DNA from: a virus
Length of the DNA: 41,334 nt
Reading direction: 5' to 3' (one strand)
IMG/VR virus record: IMGVR_UViG_3300045988_180547
The position numbers were made by a program, and so were the translations under genes. The notes below the pieces were generated by a model that saw only the letters and a program-made list of their open reading frames with translations, was not told where the DNA came from and searched no databases. Shown here piece by piece: positions 36,383 through 41,112 of the stretch (position 1 is its first letter; every line of letters begins with the position of its first letter).

Positions 36383-36477
36383 CAAAGATATATTAAATTC
36401 AATGCATTTTGAAAATGAAATGGAACATTATTTAAATAAACTTAGAGAGCTTGGAAAATAAAAATGGAGGTGTTATA

Positions 36478-37518
36478 ATGTTAAAAAATATTGCTGCAGT
36501 TGATTTATTCTGTGGTATTGGTGGATTAACACACGGACTTCAACTAGCAGGAATAAAAGTTTTGGCTGGAATTGATATTGATAGTTCATGTAAATATGCT
36601 TATGAAAAAAATAATAATACTATCTTTATAAACAAATCAATTAAAGATATAAAAGTTGAAGATATTTCTTCTCTTTTTTCTAAAAAAGATATTAAAATTC
36701 TTGTTGGATGTGCTCCTTGTCAACCATTTTCAAACTATCAAAAAGATAAAACTATGAAAGTTAAACATAAAGACTGGGATTTACTAAATGAATTTTTACG
36801 TCTCATTTTAGATTGTAATCCTGATATAGTTTCTATGGAAAATGTTCCAACTTTATTAAAAGAAAATATTTTTAATAATTTTGTAAAAGTTTTGGAAGAG
36901 AATAATTATTTTGTTACATATAAAGTTCATGATGCTCAAAATTATGGTGTTCCTCAAAGAAGAAATCGATTAGTACTCCTTGCTTCAAAATTTGGAAAAA
37001 TAGAATTTTTAGATATTAAGGAAAAAAGAAAAACAGTAAAAGAAGCAATTGGAACACTGCCTAAAATTGAAGCTGGAGAAATATATCAAAAAGATTTAAT
37101 CCATCGATCATCAAAATTAAATAATTTAAATTTACAAAGAATAATTGCTTCAATTCCTGGAAAAACATGGGAAATTTGGCCATCAAATTTACTCCCAGAA
37201 TGTTATAAAAGAAAAAGTGGAGCTTCATATAAATCAGTTTATGGAAGAATGAAATGGAACGATGTTTCTCCCACTTTAACAACTCAATTTTATAACTATG
37301 GTACTGGTAGATATGGACATCCAGAACAAAATAGAGCTATTTCTTTAAGAGAAGGGGCTATTTTACAATCATTTCCTAAAAAATATATTTTTATTGAGAA
37401 TGAAAATTTTAAATTTACCGAAATCGCTCGACATATTGGGAATGCTGTGCCCCCTAAATTAGCTGAATATATTGGAAAAACTATAATTAATCATTTAAAA
37501 GAAAGGGAGATTTTATGA
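36478..37518 (+). CDS. dcm: DNA (cytosine-5)-methyltransferase
   Basis: Motif I FCGIGG, IV GCAPCQPFS, VI ENV, VIII QRRNRLVLLA, X GNAVPP; start at 36478 (RBS GGAGGTG, 7-nt spacer) preferred over the ORF-track start at 36451. Confidence 0.9.
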   Translation: MLKNIAAVDLFCGIGGLTHGLQLAGIKVLAGIDIDSSCKYAYEKNNNTIFINKSIKDIKVEDISSLFSKKDIKILVGCAPCQPFSNYQKDKTMKVKHKDWDLLNEFLRLILDCNPDIVSMENVPTLLKENIFNNFVKVLEENNYFVTYKVHDAQNYGVPQRRNRLVLLASKFGKIEFLDIKEKRKTVKEAIGTLPKIEAGEIYQKDLIHRSSKLNNLNLQRIIASIPGKTWEIWPSNLLPECYKRKSGASYKSVYGRMKWNDVSPTLTTQFYNYGTGRYGHPEQNRAISLREGAILQSFPKKYIFIENENFKFTEIARHIGNAVPPKLAEYIGKTIINHLKEREIL

Positions 37519-38561
37519 ATTCTAAAAAAGAAATTATGGAAGAAATTAATAACAATAGAAACCTAGTAGGATATGATACTGTAGATTGGCCTATAGGCTA
37601 TATCAAATCACAATTTGATGCAGCTAGACTTTATGTTCCAACATATCAACGTAGTTTTGTATGGAATAGTACAATAAAATCAAAATTTATAGAATCTATT
37701 TTTATGGGCTTACCCATTCCTTTTTTATTTCTATATAGACATAAAGAAACTGGTACTTTAGAAATTGTTGATGGAGCTCAAAGAATTCAAACATTAGTTG
37801 AATTTTTAAATAATAAGTTAATTTTAAATGATTTAAAAAAACTTAAATCTTTAAATGGAAAAATTTTTAATGACATCCCTGAAAAATATCAAGTTATCTT
37901 TGAAACAACTTCTCTTAGAATTATAGTTTTAGATGAAAAAACTACTGAAAATAATAGAAAAGAAATCTTTAATCGTTTAAATACTACTGGAGAAAAATTA
38001 GAAGAAATAGAAGTAATTTTAGGTTCTTATAGTGGGCCTTTTATTAACTTCTTAAAAAATTGTTCTGAGAATCAACTTTTAAAAAATCTTTGTCCTATTT
38101 CTAAAGAAAAACTTAAAAGAAAAGAAAATATAGAATTAGTTTTAAGATTTTTTGCTTATGCAAATGATTTGGAAATAAATAATGAAAATATTGTAACCCT
38201 AAAAACATATTCTGGAACTGTTTTTCCTTTTTTAGAAAAATATGTAAAAGAAACAACAACCTTTAATAAAAAAGAATTAGAATCTGATTTTATAAATATG
38301 TTAACATTTGTTAAAAATTATTTTCCTCTTGGATTTAAAAAAAGTAAAAAATCTAATTCAACTCCAAGAACAAGATTTGAAGCTATTGCTTTAGGAGTAC
38401 ATTTAGCTTTAAAACAAAATCCAAATTTGACTCCTAACAATATTAATTGGCTAGATGATGAAGAGTTTAAAAAAGTAACAACAACTGATAGTGCTAATAA
38501 TAAATCGAAAGTTATAGAAAGAATTCAATATGTTACTACAAAATTGTTGGAGGCTAAATAA
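37515..38561 (+). CDS. DUF262 (ParB/Srx-fold, GmrS-like) domain protein lacking a DUF1524/HNH half
   Basis: VPTYQRSFVWN and VDGAQRIQTL match the DUF262 signatures; 348 aa; ATGA overlap with the dcm stop. Confidence 0.75.
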   Translation: MNSKKEIMEEINNNRNLVGYDTVDWPIGYIKSQFDAARLYVPTYQRSFVWNSTIKSKFIESIFMGLPIPFLFLYRHKETGTLEIVDGAQRIQTLVEFLNNKLILNDLKKLKSLNGKIFNDIPEKYQVIFETTSLRIIVLDEKTTENNRKEIFNRLNTTGEKLEEIEVILGSYSGPFINFLKNCSENQLLKNLCPISKEKLKRKENIELVLRFFAYANDLEINNENIVTLKTYSGTVFPFLEKYVKETTTFNKKELESDFINMLTFVKNYFPLGFKKSKKSNSTPRTRFEAIALGVHLALKQNPNLTPNNINWLDDEEFKKVTTTDSANNKSKVIERIQYVTTKLLEAK

Positions 38562-39268
38562 TGGCAGAAATTTTTCTTCCTGAATATGAAAAAAGAAAAA
38601 ATGAAGTTCAATATTTTCTAGAAATCTTAAAAAAATTTGATTCCTATGATAAAAAAGCTTCTGGAAAAAAACTATTTAATTTTCAAGAATTTACATATAC
38701 AGATTATTTTAAAATGCTTCGTTCAAGCTTTATATTAATTCTTTATAGTTACATTGAAAATAGTATTTCTTTATTTATGCAGGAACTTTATTCTCATTTA
38801 GAAAGTGAAGATATTTCCTATAGTATGGCTATTGATAATTTAAAAGAATTATACTTAAAGAATCTTTTTGTAGATACTTTTCAAAAAGATGCAAGTTATA
38901 ATACATATGAACGAAAAGCATTAGAACTCATCAAACAAGCTATTGAAGATAAAAAAATGAAATTAACAATTGCAAAATTAAATATTTCAGGAAATGTTAG
39001 TGGTGAGGTAATCAAAAAAATTTGGGAAAACCATGGTATTAAATTTTCATCTAGTTCTAAATCATTATATCCAACAAATCAATATACTGTAGATACCATA
39101 AAAAATCAAAGAAATGCTCTAGCTCATGGAAGAGAATCATTTAAAGAATCTGGAGGTAAATATTCTGTTCTTGATCTAGAAAGATATTATACTGAAATAT
39201 CTAAGTTATTAGATGATTTAAAATTATCTATTAAAAATTTTATTGAGAAGAAAGAATATTTACTTTAA
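38561..39268 (+). CDS. HEPN-motif protein (Rx4HG), putative RNase effector partner of DUF262
   Basis: C-terminal QRNALAHGR fits the HEPN Rx4-6H motif; start overlaps the DUF262 stop (TAATG). Confidence 0.5.
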   Translation: MAEIFLPEYEKRKNEVQYFLEILKKFDSYDKKASGKKLFNFQEFTYTDYFKMLRSSFILILYSYIENSISLFMQELYSHLESEDISYSMAIDNLKELYLKNLFVDTFQKDASYNTYERKALELIKQAIEDKKMKLTIAKLNISGNVSGEVIKKIWENHGIKFSSSSKSLYPTNQYTVDTIKNQRNALAHGRESFKESGGKYSVLDLERYYTEISKLLDDLKLSIKNFIEKKEYLL

Positions 39269-39272
39269 TAAA

Positions 39273-39300
39273 AACAGCCCCTACGCCAATAGGAGCTGTC
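39273..39300 (+). terminator. weak hairpin after the cassette
   Basis: acagcccct-N8-aggagctgt, 9-bp stem with 1 mismatch, no U-run. Confidence 0.25.
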
Positions 39301-39411
39301 CAAGCATACTAATAACCAAAGTTACTAATATACATTACCACAATAATAGTATATCACGACTTTGGTTATTTTGTAATACACAAAATCAAAAAAATGGAGA
39401 GTGATATTATG

Positions 39412-40428
39412 AAAAAACCAAATGGGCTTGGAACTGTCTATAAGATGTCAGGAAATAGGCGAAAACCATTCAGAGCTGTTATTACAACAGGCTATGATAT
39501 AGTAGGAACTCAAAAAAGATTTACAATAGGATATTATGCTACCAGAAAAGAGGCTGAAAAAGCTTTAGCATCTTATGAATATAATCCTGAAAAATTAAAA
39601 AATTCTAAATTAACTTTTAAAGATGTTTATGACAAATGGAGTGAATCTCATTTCCCTAAACTTCAACCAAATACAGTAGAAGTTACTATGTCTTATGCAA
39701 AAAATTTAATTCCACTACATGATATTCCCTTTGTAGAAATTAAAGCTATTCAACTTCAAGACTTATTTAATAAATTAGAAATATCAGCAGCAAGTAAAGC
39801 AAAAGTTAAAAATATAATCAATGCCATGTATAAATATGCTTTAAAATATGAAATAGTAGACAAAGATTACTCTGCTCTAATTGACCTTGGGAAAAGAGAA
39901 AAAGTTATTCAAAGAAAAGTATTTACAGATGAAGAGATATCAAAATTATGGAAATATAAAGATTTATATTGGGTAGATACAATTCTAATAATGATTTATT
40001 CTGGTATGAGAGTAGGAGAGCTTTTGGGACTTAAAAATGAGCATATTGATTTAGAAAATAGGATTATAGTAGGGGCTGGAATTAAGACTGAAGCTGGAAA
40101 AAATAGAGTTATTCCTATCAATAGAAAAATTTTACCTCTCATCCAAAAACATATGAGAGCAGATAAAACTTTTTTATTTGCAACTAAAACTAATAGACCT
40201 GTTCTTTATGATAATTATAGAAAATCTTTTATGTCTGTAATGGATAAATTAGAAATGACTCATACTATCCATGACTGTAGACATACCTTTGCAACTTTAT
40301 TAAATAATGCTGATGCCAATCCTACAGCTATTAAAAATATAGTTGGACATACTAGCTTTGAAACAACAGAAAAAATTTATACACATAAAAATATAGAAGA
40401 ACTTAAAAAGGCTATTGATTTAATCTGA
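39412..40428 (+). CDS. int: tyrosine site-specific integrase
   Basis: C-terminal catalytic region HDCRHTFAT...GHTSFETTEKIYTH (H-x-x-R...Y); start at 39412 (MKKPNG, RBS GGAGAGTG) preferred over 39394. Confidence 0.85.
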   Translation, partial: KKPNGLGTVYKMSGNRRKPFRAVITTGYDIVGTQKRFTIGYYATRKEAEKALASYEYNPEKLKNSKLTFKDVYDKWSESHFPKLQPNTVEVTMSYAKNLIPLHDIPFVEIKAIQLQDLFNKLEISAASKAKVKNIINAMYKYALKYEIVDKDYSALIDLGKREKVIQRKVFTDEEISKLWKYKDLYWVDTILIMIYSGMRVGELLGLKNEHIDLENRIIVGAGIKTEAGKNRVIPINRKILPLIQKHMRADKTFLFATKTNRPVLYDNYRKSFMSVMDKLEMTHTIHDCRHTFATLLNNADANPTAIKNIVGHTSFETTEKIYTHKNIEELKKAIDLI

Positions 40429-40517: not shown

Positions 40518-40712
40518 ATGAAAAAACATATAAAGAAAATTCTAAATCCAAAGCTCACTCTAGAAGTTAGTGCAGATAAAATATTAGAAAAATATCCTTT
40601 TCACTATGACTACAATAATTCTATCACTGCTACTTTAAGTTCAGACTGGTCTAAAATTGGCAAAGATATTGAGAAGGCTATTTTAAGATATGGTTCGGAA
40701 AACAAAAGATAG
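40518..40712 (+). CDS. hypothetical protein
   Basis: 64-aa ORF with RBS AGAGGT. Confidence 0.35.
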   Translation: MKKHIKKILNPKLTLEVSADKILEKYPFHYDYNNSITATLSSDWSKIGKDIEKAILRYGSENKR

Positions 40713-41112
40713 TCAAAAACAAGTAATTTCAAAGCAATCTCATATAATAGCAGTGGAAAATTATAAAGGGGATATTCCACATCCTAGTATAGTGGCTGGA
40801 TATGAACAAATGTGTCCAGGAGCTACTGAAAGGATTTTAAAAATGGCTGAGAGTGAAACTTACCATAGACAACAATTACAAAATAAAGAATTAGATAATG
40901 CAATTGACTTGAGAACAAAAGAGTTAGAATATAATATAAAATATAATACTAGAGGGCAAATTTTTACTTTTATTCTGTTATTATCTTGTATTCTAGGTGG
41001 AATAATTTTATTATACCTAGGCAGAGATATTGGTGGATATGGAATGCTAATTACTTCAGTTATTTCAGTAGTTGCAATTCTAGTTAATCAATCAAAGAAA
41101 AATGATAAATGA
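40690..41112 (+). CDS. small membrane protein (2 C-terminal TM helices; DUF2335-like)
   Basis: IFTFILLLSCILGGIILLYLG and MLITSVISVVAILV helices; overlaps the previous ORF. Confidence 0.4.
   Translation: MVRKTKDSQKQVISKQSHIIAVENYKGDIPHPSIVAGYEQMCPGATERILKMAESETYHRQQLQNKELDNAIDLRTKELEYNIKYNTRGQIFTFILLLSCILGGIILLYLGRDIGGYGMLITSVISVVAILVNQSKKNDK

What the first reader, a model, noticed from the sequence alone, without database searches (positions are those of the whole stretch)
36451..39268. Translationally coupled Dcm methyltransferase – DUF262 – HEPN-motif cassette between ImmA and integrase, a candidate undescribed defence system
Seen in sequence: three plus-strand genes with overlapping stop/start codons (ATGA at 37515-37518; TAATG at 38559-38563), each with its own RBS. 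Gene 1 carries all the C5-MTase motifs (FCGIGG, PCQ, ENV, QRRNR, GNAV). Gene 2 carries the two DUF262 signatures (YQRSFVW, DGAQR) but is only 348 aa and lacks the DUF1524/His-Me nuclease half found in GmrSD/BrxU/SspE-type enzymes. Gene 3 (235 aa) ends with an Rx4HG motif (QRNALAHGR) of HEPN type. Inference: this reads as a sensor NTPase (DUF262) with the nuclease supplied in trans by a HEPN RNase. That suggests an abortive-infection or superinfection-exclusion logic rather than classical type IV restriction. The co-translated MTase could be self-protection, a modification that licenses or triggers the pair, or anti-restriction for the phage. The cassette sits in the lysogeny module (cI–ImmA–cassette–int), where prophages carry lysogen-expressed defence morons, and a degenerate ImmA fragment just upstream suggests it was inserted. 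I cannot match MTase+DUF262+HEPN to a named system from memory. I have only a vague recollection that one HEPN family (MAE_28990/MAE_18760-like) has been noted next to DUF262 genes. If so, the addition of the methyltransferase and the phage context would be the novel part.
Basis: partly seen in the sequence, partly recalled or inferred. Interest (0 to 1): 0.85.

Follow-up and report, generated by a model that had tools for sequence, protein, structure and literature searches.

The report
Methylase–DUF262–HEPN prophage defence cassette
A Fusobacterium prophage carries a compact three-gene cassette (cytosine methylase, DUF262 DNA sensor, HEPN RNase) that is real and very probably an anti-phage module, but it belongs to a widespread operon type noted in 2013 whose two-gene relative PD-T4-2 was shown to block phage T4 in 2022, so only its mechanism remains open.

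Summary
Three translationally coupled plus-strand genes lie between the cI/ImmA genes and the integrase of a prophage: a C5-cytosine methyltransferase (36478-37518), a ParB-DUF262 protein without a DUF1524 nuclease (37515-38561), and a HEPN protein of the MAE_28990/RiboL-PSP type with an invariant Rx4H motif (38561-39268).

The cassette is not undescribed. Anantharaman et al. [quoted passage not shown] PD-T4-2 (DUF262 plus a HEPN of the same two Pfam families) protects E. coli from T4 (Vassallo 2022).

In my census of about 95 related loci, DUF262 preceded the HEPN gene wherever upstream sequence existed, with one exception. About 70 of 74 informative loci carry an adjacent C5 methylase. The three proteins co-diverge, and the methylase's target-recognition region is its most conserved part. 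DNA homology to other loci begins at the methylase ATG and ends 4-9 nt after the HEPN stop.

The module also occurs in deposited phage genomes (Moraxella Mcat24-32, a P2-like coliphage) and outside prophages.

Most likely mechanism (inferred, not shown): the methylase writes a 5mC mark, DUF262 reads it on DNA, and DUF262 controls the HEPN RNase to abort infection.

Novelty: new member of a known kind. Interest is moderate.

The parts
36478..37518 (+). g1: C5-cytosine DNA methyltransferase, 346 aa. True start is ATG 36478; the finding's 36451 is an upstream in-frame TTG.
   Evidence: PF00145 2.3e-64 and TIGR00675 2e-42. PADLOC DrmMII/MTase_II hits at 1e-88 to 1e-90. GGAGG RBS. Motifs I, IV (PCQ, Cys81), VI (ENV) and X are near-invariant in 39 orthologues, and the region between motifs VIII and IX is the most conserved part.
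37515..38561 (+). g2: ParB-DUF262 NTPase-type sensor with a C-terminal helical (ParBDB-like) domain, 348 aa, no DUF1524 nuclease. Its start overlaps the g1 stop (ATGA).
38561..39268 (+). g3: HEPN-domain protein of the MAE_28990/RiboL-PSP family, predicted RNase, 235 aa. Rx4H is R184...H189. Its start overlaps the g2 stop (TAATG).
36234..36477 (+). Intergenic spacer between ImmA and g1. It is not part of the conserved mobile block. It contains an imperfect inverted repeat (36268-36293 / 36356-36381). No convincing dedicated promoter was found.
   Evidence: DNA homology to other loci starts only at 36478. Inverted repeat I5. The promoter scan is no better than shuffles, 41 sites against 38 expected. 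No ImmA similarity.
35201..36233 (+). Context: cI-like HTH repressor (35201-35503) and ImmA/IrrE M78 metallopeptidase (35508-36233). They lie on the same strand, directly upstream, and probably belong to the same lysogenic transcript (inferred).
   Evidence: PF01381 and PF06114 hits. No terminator-like site lies between ImmA and g1.
39394..40428 (+). Context: tyrosine integrase directly downstream of the cassette.
   Evidence: PF00589 1e-25 with SAM-like and arm-binding N-terminal domains.

Best explanation
The cassette is a member of the C5-methyltransferase / ParB-DUF262 / MAE_28990-HEPN operon family. It is carried here as a lysogen-expressed gene block ('moron') of a Fusobacterium prophage, and it most likely acts as a methylation-keyed anti-phage (superinfection-exclusion) module.

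Proposed working:
1. g1 writes 5-methylcytosine at one fixed short motif on resident DNA.
2. g2 binds DNA through its ParB-DUF262 and ParBDB domains. It reads whether that mark is present and couples this to NTP binding or hydrolysis.
3. g3, a HEPN RNase, is held inactive by g2. It is released when g2 meets DNA of the wrong modification state, most probably unmarked incoming or replicating phage DNA. RNA cleavage then stops translation and aborts the infection.

What is shown: domain identities and folds; conservation of all three catalytic motif sets; near-obligate linkage, co-divergence and translational coupling of the three genes; horizontal mobility of exactly this three-gene block.

What is inferred: defence function (from PD-T4-2), RNA as the target (HEPN family knowledge), a g2-g3 complex, and that the mark is read at all.

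My split within the methylation-coupled reading: about 0.35 that unmarked DNA triggers the system (R-M/DISARM-like polarity), and about 0.2 that the mark licenses it (SspE-like polarity).
For: Domain and fold assignments.

The operon type is listed in Anantharaman 2013, Table 1.

PD-T4-2 is DUF262 plus a HEPN that matches PF18735 (97.8%) and PF18737 (96.9%) by HHpred. It protects against T4 both in its native strain ECOR65 and when cloned into K-12.

Every context of a g3 homologue, from 99% down to 31% identity, keeps methylase-DUF262-HEPN.

Census of about 95 loci:
- 52 have an orthologous methylase directly upstream.
- 7 have another or a partial C5 methylase upstream.
- 11 have a C5 methylase directly downstream.
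- 2 are followed by a type IIG N6 methylase-nuclease fusion instead.
- 1 has no methylase nearby.

In 39 unique triads the pairwise-identity matrices correlate (Pearson r 0.80-0.86). The methylase is the most conserved protein (55%, against 46% for DUF262 and 32% for HEPN).

The methylase target-recognition region is its most conserved part (0.73; 0.83-0.88 over residues 251-300). This implies one shared specificity, as expected if a dedicated reader must match the mark.

Gene overlaps are conserved: median -8 nt and -4 nt.

The structurally closest solved DUF262 proteins (BrxU, SspE, DndI) are all DNA-modification sensors (review).

The cassette lies in the lysogeny module of at least four unrelated temperate phage lineages.
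Against: No experiment exists on any methylase-linked member. No paper in the searchable library mentions MAE_28990 apart from the 2013 survey.

PD-T4-2 was cloned without a methylase, yet it works and is tolerated in K-12.

Pairs without a nearby methylase exist: L063 and the IncF plasmids represented by L100.

In two loci the methylase reading frame is broken while DUF262 and HEPN are intact: L013 (Leptotrichia rugosa) and L098 (P24B2). This argues against a simple lethal R-M polarity. Assembly error is possible, and class 1 DISARM also tolerates loss of its methylases.

PADLOC's PD-T4-2_B profile does not hit g3, and g2 scores better against NsnA than against PD-T4-2_A. The relation to the validated system is therefore at family level, not orthology.

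The RNA target, the g2-g3 interaction and the methylation motif are all unknown.
Confidence: 0.55

Rival explanations
1. PrrC-like guard. The HEPN RNase is kept silent by a methylase-DUF262 complex and fires when a phage counter-defence disturbs that complex (for example a SAM-degrading enzyme, a DNA mimic or a methylase inhibitor). It would be a second line of defence that senses attack on the modification machinery rather than DNA state.
For: Anantharaman 2013 proposes exactly this logic for HEPN genes linked to R-M components, by analogy with PrrC/EcoprrI. A 2025 R-M review describes PrrC as a guardian activated by Stp inhibition of EcoPrrI. The tight three-gene coupling and co-divergence fit a physical complex.
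Against: There is no restriction nuclease to guard in most loci. PD-T4-2 works without any methylase in the clone. The 2013 paper notes that HEPN domains fuse to nucleases and helicases but not to methylases.
Confidence: 0.12
2. Two independent functions that travel together. g2+g3 form a type IV-like, modification-dependent sensor-effector pair that recognises foreign hypermodified cytosines, as GmrSD/BrxU do (PD-T4-2 acts on T4). The methylase is a separate phage anti-restriction or epigenetic gene.
For: PD-T4-2 was selected on T4, which carries glucosyl-hmC, and needs no methylase in the clone. The closest solved DUF262 proteins sense modified DNA. Phage-borne orphan C5 methylases are common (established knowledge). 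The methylase frame is broken in two loci with intact partners.
Against: About 95% adjacency across phyla, including non-phage sites such as inside gatCAB and between hisS and aspS. Co-divergence at r 0.80-0.86, with the methylase as the most conserved member and a fixed target-recognition region. Overlapping stop/start codons are conserved. The mobile block begins exactly at the methylase ATG. A sensor of modified cytosine sitting next to a 5mC writer would risk self-triggering.
Confidence: 0.15
3. Selfish addiction module. The block behaves like a mobile R-M/toxin-antitoxin unit whose main effect is post-segregational killing, which stabilises the prophage or its own insertion. Phage defence would be incidental.
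Against: Loci with a broken or absent methylase but intact DUF262-HEPN persist. The related PD-T4-2 gives real phage protection in its native strain. Nothing here measures stability.
Confidence: 0.08

Closest known systems
MAE_28990 HEPN / ParB(DUF262) / DNA methylase operon (Anantharaman, Makarova, Burroughs, Koonin & Aravind 2013, Biol Direct 8:15, Table 1)
   Same: Same three components and the same HEPN family. g3 passes PF18737's gathering score, the Rx4H motif is conserved, and all three genes lie in one operon. NCBI already names homologues 'MAE_28990/MAE_18760 family HEPN-like nuclease' and 'DUF262 domain-containing protein'.
   Different: Nothing essential differs; this is a new instance in a Fusobacterium prophage. 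The 2013 entry is a one-line table note, with no census, no mechanism specific to this triad and no experiment.
PD-T4-2 (Vassallo et al. 2022, Nat Microbiol; E. coli ECOR65)
   Same: A DUF262 protein without DUF1524, followed by a small HEPN protein that matches the same two Pfam families, PF18735 and PF18737. It is mobile-element associated. It is the only experimentally validated relative, and protects against T4.
   Different: PD-T4-2 is a two-gene system of 1,540 bp, cloned and active without a methylase. g2 matches PD-T4-2_A only at 1e-35, weaker than its NsnA match. g3 does not match PADLOC's PD-T4-2_B at all. I could not retrieve the ECOR65 locus to see whether a methylase flanks it.
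Menshen (NsnABC; Millman 2022; Li et al. 2025 NAR)
   Same: g2 aligns over its full length to the NsnA profile (1e-51), that is ParB-DUF262 plus ParBDB. Li et al. also note frequent methylase neighbours and ask whether DUF262 might target non-modified DNA.
   Different: There is no NsnB ATPase and no NsnC (inactive-PIN plus nuclease) gene. The partner here is a HEPN protein.
SspABCD-SspE, DndBCDE-DndI and GmrSD/BrxU (DUF262-DUF1524 modification sensors)
   Different: The effector here is a separate HEPN RNase, not a fused His-Me DNase. The linked modification is 5mC, not phosphorothioate.
PrrC-EcoprrI / RloC (HEPN anticodon nucleases linked to R-M)
   Same: A HEPN RNase is genetically embedded with DNA-modification genes and is presumed to be a latent suicide effector.
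   Different: The regulator is a ParB-DUF262 protein, not an ABC ATPase fused to the HEPN domain. Most loci have no restriction endonuclease.

Membership tests
MAE_28990-HEPN / ParB / methylase operon (Anantharaman 2013) | HEPN protein of the MAE_28990 family with a conserved Rx4-6H motif | tested here: met
MAE_28990-HEPN / ParB / methylase operon (Anantharaman 2013) | ParB-like (DUF262) gene in the same operon | tested here: met
   g2 matches PF03235 at 3e-25 and its stop overlaps the g3 start. DUF262 lies upstream of the HEPN gene in every related locus with upstream sequence, except L060.
MAE_28990-HEPN / ParB / methylase operon (Anantharaman 2013) | DNA methylase gene in the same operon | tested here: met
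   g1 matches PF00145 at 2e-64 and its stop overlaps the g2 start. About 70 of 74 informative loci have an adjacent C5 methylase.
PD-T4-2 | DUF262 protein lacking DUF1524, plus an adjacent HEPN of the RiboL-PSP/MAE_28990 type | tested here: met
   The composition of PD-T4-2 comes from Vassallo Tables S1 and S3.
PD-T4-2 | Match to both PADLOC profiles, PD-T4-2_A and PD-T4-2_B | tested here: not met
   The A profile hits at 9.5e-36 but is second to NsnA (1e-51). The B profile gives no hit at E<=0.1. The same holds for five other family members.
PD-T4-2 | Experimentally shown anti-phage activity | not testable with these tools
   Needs plaque assays.
Menshen (NsnABC) | NsnA: ParB-DUF262 plus ParBDB | tested here: met
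   PADLOC NsnA 1.1e-51; g2 residues 15-341 align to profile positions 41-376 of 385.
Menshen (NsnABC) | NsnB ATPase and NsnC effector immediately downstream | tested here: not met
   The downstream genes are the HEPN gene and then the integrase. No ATPase ORF is present. Li et al. state that NsnA-NsnB is almost always followed by NsnC.
GmrSD / BrxU / SspE type IV-like enzymes | DUF262 fused or paired with a DUF1524 His-Me nuclease | tested here: not met
   There is no DUF1524 hit in g2, g3 or the neighbouring genes. Only the N-terminal domain aligns to BrxU and SspE.
Type II restriction-modification system | Methyltransferase plus a cognate DNA endonuclease | tested here: not met
   The methylase is present, but no DNase domain is found in g2 or g3. 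The only PADLOC 'REase_II' hit (5e-12) covers just the DUF262 region.
DISARM | DrmA/DrmB/DrmC core genes together with a DrmMII methylase | tested here: not met
   Only the methylase resembles DrmMII (2e-90). No helicase, DUF1998 or PLD genes are in the window region.
Dazbog | DzbA (DUF262) and DzbB profiles | tested here: not met
   No Dzb profile appears among the PADLOC hits for g2 or g3 at E<=0.1.

The most novel reading that the evidence does not exclude
The triad could be a distinct class of epigenetically keyed immunity. It would be R-M-like, but its 'restriction' arm is an RNase rather than a DNase. A methylase with one specificity conserved across phyla writes a fixed 5mC 'password'. 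A dedicated ParB-DUF262 reader checks DNA for that mark, and HEPN-mediated RNA cleavage (abortive infection) follows when the check fails. The block would spread as a recombinase-free three-ORF cassette, even into essential operons.
Probability: 0.3. Interest if true: 0.7.

Novelty: new member of a known kind. Interest (0 to 1): 0.38.

Why it matters
DUF262-HEPN systems are experimentally real (PD-T4-2) but have no known mechanism. The role of the methylase that accompanies most family members has never been tested.

This 2.8-kb, low-GC cassette is a clean, minimal, translationally coupled example in which each activity has obvious point mutants: g1 C81; g2 D86/R90; g3 R184/H189.

The census results give concrete, testable predictions about a writer-reader-effector logic. 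These results are the near-obligate methylase linkage, a single conserved methylase specificity, co-divergence of the three genes, and exact cassette boundaries.

There is also a practical point. PADLOC v2.0.0 profiles do not recognise the HEPN partner, so this widespread module is probably missed by that tool. The family has at least 1,251 clusters at 50% identity (E<=1e-10), is found in many phyla, and occurs in prophages of human-associated Fusobacterium, Moraxella and E. coli.

Tried and rejected
- Megablast of the lysogeny region against 50,697 phage records: no match.
- Pattern scan of IMG/VR viral contigs with the HEPN alignment: no confirmed relative.
- Profile search of the HEPN alignment against PDB sequences: no real hit, so the family has no solved structure.
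- 'Degenerate ImmA fragment' at about 36300-36380: no BLAST or Pfam support.
- Promoter and terminator scan: no better than shuffled sequence in this AT-rich DNA.
- Search for flanking direct or inverted repeats that could mark cassette ends: only chance-level AT-rich matches.
- Rfam search for an RNA regulator or antitoxin: none.
- Inferring the methylase target from its best PADLOC hit (DrmMII): rejected, because characterised DrmMII enzymes have unrelated motifs, MTCGAK versus CCWGG.
- Linking the window's extreme CpG depletion to the methylase (its C-terminal region resembles DNMT1): rejected. There is no TG/CA excess, and other cassette-bearing genomes are not CpG-depleted.
The E. coli relatives I did find (P24B2 and the IncF plasmids) are not PD-T4-2 orthologues by PADLOC score.
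Full report
**1. What is in the sequence**

Three plus-strand ORFs lie at 36451/36478-37518, 37515-38561 and 38561-39268. ATGA at 37515-37518 joins g1 to g2, and TAATG at 38559-38563 joins g2 to g3. Shine-Dalgarno-like GGAGG, GGGAG and GGAGG sequences lie 6-8 nt upstream of each ATG.

Pfam gives these assignments:
- g1: C5 DNA methylase, PF00145, 2e-64.
- g2: GmrSD_N/DUF262 only, PF03235, 3e-25. There is no DUF1524.
- g3: HEPN_MAE_28990 (PF18737, 3e-13) and HEPN_RiboL-PSP (PF18735, 2e-10). Both are above their gathering scores.

The flanking genes are a cI-like HTH repressor, an ImmA/M78 peptidase and a tyrosine integrase. The rest of the window encodes terminase, portal, major head protein, tape measure, primase/helicase and an Ant anti-repressor. 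So this is a prophage, and the cassette sits in its lysogeny module. A 99%-identical copy of g3 is in an uncultured Fusobacterium sp. assembly.

Two details need correcting. The g1 start is the ATG at 36478: it has the RBS, it gives the 346-aa orthologue length, and DNA homology begins there. The upstream 'degenerate ImmA fragment' has no support.

**2. Folds**

**3. Is the triad a unit?**

Yes. Every genomic context of a g3 homologue, from 99% down to 31% identity, has methylase-DUF262-HEPN in the same order and on the same strand:
- a related prophage (S24 repressor | triad | IS | integrase);
- a Tissierella prophage (ImmA | triad | serine recombinase);
- a non-phage chromosomal site;
- a Pseudolactococcus genome, where the triad sits inside gatCAB, between gatA and gatB.

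A genome scan added Leptotrichia (hisS | triad | aspS), Synergistaceae, Lachnospiraceae and a xanthomonad. A metagenome scan added 80 further loci. I classified all loci with HMMs built from my own alignments:

| Arrangement | Loci |
|---|---|
| Orthologous C5 methylase directly upstream | 52 |
| Other or truncated C5 methylase upstream | 7 |
| C5 methylase directly downstream (4 co-directional, 7 convergent) | 11 |
| DUF262-HEPN pair, no adjacent C5 methylase | 3 |
| HEPN without DUF262 | 1 |

Of the three pairs without an adjacent C5 methylase, two are followed by a type IIG N6 methylase-nuclease fusion. The lone HEPN sits beside an Alw26I-type R-M system. The remaining loci were too short to judge. 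So about 70 of 74 informative loci carry an adjacent C5 methylase. This count is not fully de-replicated.

In 39 non-redundant triads, the pairwise-identity matrices of the three proteins correlate with Pearson r of 0.80-0.86. Mean identity falls from the methylase (55%) to DUF262 (46%) to HEPN (32%).

The methylase region between motifs VIII and IX, where target recognition lies, is its most conserved part: 0.73 overall and 0.83-0.88 over residues 251-300. The clade therefore probably shares one specificity. This is unlike the specificity diversification typical of R-M systems.

Stop/start overlaps are conserved, with median gaps of -8 nt and -4 nt.

Nucleotide homology between the window and other loci starts at the methylase ATG (36478) and ends 4-9 nt after the HEPN stop (39272-39277). 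The cassette's CpG odds ratio is 0.30, against 0.07-0.10 in the surrounding prophage. So the block was indeed acquired horizontally, as exactly three ORFs.

**4. What is already known**

Anantharaman et al. [quoted passage not shown] That is this triad.

Vassallo et al. 2022 isolated PD-T4-2 from ECOR65, described as 'DUF262, HEPN'. By HHpred its second protein matches PF18735 (97.8%) and PF18737 (96.9%). The system protects against T4 both when cloned into K-12 and in the native strain.

Later reviews and Li et al. 2025 list PD-T4-2, Dazbog and Menshen as uncharacterised DUF262 systems that lack DUF1524. Li et al. raise the idea that associated methylases might work with DUF262 against non-modified DNA.

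I found no paper that tests a methylase-linked member. Nothing in the library mentions MAE_28990 other than the 2013 survey.

The family is large. It has at least 479 HEPN clusters and at least 2,295 DUF262 clusters at 90% identity. An exhaustive search found 1,761 HEPN clusters at 50% identity, 1,251 of them at E<=1e-10. NCBI already names members 'MAE_28990/MAE_18760 family HEPN-like nuclease'.

The family is also in deposited phage genomes:
- Moraxella phages Mcat24-32: S24 cI | DUF262 | HEPN | convergent orthologous methylase.
- The P2-like coliphage P24B2: DUF262 | HEPN | split methylase, beside the replication gene.
- IncF plasmids of E. coli and Salmonella carry the pair alone.

PHROGs holds both proteins as families of unknown function.

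PADLOC's PD-T4-2_B profile hits neither g3 nor five other members. All the DUF262 partners score higher on NsnA than on PD-T4-2_A. The family is therefore a sister of PD-T4-2 rather than PD-T4-2 itself, and at least this tool would miss it.

**5. How it probably works**

All three enzymes keep their catalytic motifs under selection. The DUF262 fold's characterised relatives are NTP-dependent readers of DNA modification that control a nuclease. HEPN proteins with Rx4-6H are RNases.

The most economical model is writer-reader-effector. g1 writes a fixed 5mC mark. g2 reads it on DNA. g2 then gates the g3 RNase, whose activation arrests translation and aborts infection. For a prophage, that amounts to superinfection exclusion.

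Arguments that the mark is part of the mechanism:
- the near-obligate linkage to a methylase;
- the methylase-first, translationally coupled order;
- the methylase being the most conserved member, with a fixed target-recognition region.

The polarity is unresolved. R-M/DISARM-like polarity (unmarked DNA is the trigger) fits the gene order. Some observations would be unusual for a lethal R-M logic. Pairs without a methylase exist, PD-T4-2 functions without one, and two loci have a frameshifted methylase next to intact partners. These fit an SspE-like 'mark-licensed' logic, or supply of the mark by a resident methylase. Class 1 DISARM also tolerates methylase loss without autoimmunity. The L013 frameshift consists of three small deletions within 50 nt relative to a 98%-identical intact copy, and may be an assembly artefact.

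The rivals are a PrrC-like guard, an independent methylase plus a type IV-like pair, and a selfish addiction module. They are weighed in their own sections.

**6. Verdict**

The claim of an undescribed system is not upheld. The cassette is a new member of an operon family that was described bioinformatically in 2013, and its two-gene relative was validated experimentally in 2022.

What remains open, and is worth testing on this compact cassette, is the mechanism and especially the role of the methylase. The census results reported here sharpen that question.

Noticed in passing
window 1-41334 (cassette 36478-39268 compared with the rest): Extreme CpG depletion. The symmetrised CpG odds ratio is 0.11 for the window (0.07-0.10 in the flanks) with no TG/CA excess. 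The cassette itself is at 0.30. Other cassette-bearing genomes are not depleted, so this is a trait of the host lineage. It also marks the cassette as compositionally foreign.
   Followed up: partly
window 1-41334: Strong GATC avoidance: 12 sites observed against about 98 expected from a maximal-order Markov model. This suggests pressure from a GATC-specific restriction system in the host.
   Followed up: no
L011:5834-8699 (Pseudolactococcus yaeyamensis) and L013:4939-7738 (Leptotrichia rugosa): The three-ORF block is inserted inside housekeeping operons, with no recombinase or repeats nearby. In L011 it lies between gatA and gatB, and the HEPN ORF overlaps the gatB start. In L013 it lies between hisS and aspS. 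Both sites are next to tRNA-related genes. How such a block moves is unexplained.
   Followed up: partly
L013:4939-5981 and L098:1997-3179: The methylase reading frame is broken while DUF262 and HEPN are intact. L013 has three deletions (-1, -1 and -2 nt) within 50 nt relative to the 98%-identical L020. In the P2-like phage P24B2 the methylase is split over two frames. These are either real pseudogenes, which would bear on the mechanism, or assembly errors.
   Followed up: partly
L017:5926-10201; L067:3808-8985; L070:2225-7167; L060:5004-10629; L071 and L075 downstream of the triad: Variant neighbourhoods. In L017 the pair is followed by Vsr, an unassigned 285-aa ORF and a C5 methylase. In L067 and L070 the pair is followed by a 1002-aa type IIG Eco57I/MmeI-like enzyme. 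In L060 a HEPN gene without DUF262 sits beside an Alw26I-type R-M system. L071 and L075 have one or two extra C5 methylases after the triad.
   Followed up: partly
window 36268-36293 and 36356-36381: An imperfect inverted repeat (26-nt arms, 10-bp perfect core TACTCTTGAG/CTCAAGAGTA, 62-nt spacer) in the ImmA-methylase intergenic region. It could be an operator or an RNA hairpin. It is not conserved with other loci.
   Followed up: no
window 40518-41112: Just past the integrase lie a 64-aa ORF and a DUF2335 membrane protein (PF10097, 1.6e-16). It is unclear whether they are phage cargo or host genes beyond the attachment site. No tRNA gene is in the window.
   Followed up: no
g3 and five homologues (L017, L098, L099, L100): PADLOC v2.0.0 has no profile that recognises these HEPN partners, and it assigns the DUF262 partner to NsnA first. 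Profile-based defence annotation probably misses or mislabels this widespread module.
   Followed up: yes
g1 residues 227-338: The C-terminal part of the methylase (late target-recognition region plus motifs IX-X) is most similar, among solved structures, to eukaryotic DNMT1 (E about 1e-21), not to bacterial M.HhaI or M.HaeIII, which match only the N-terminal catalytic half.
   Followed up: no
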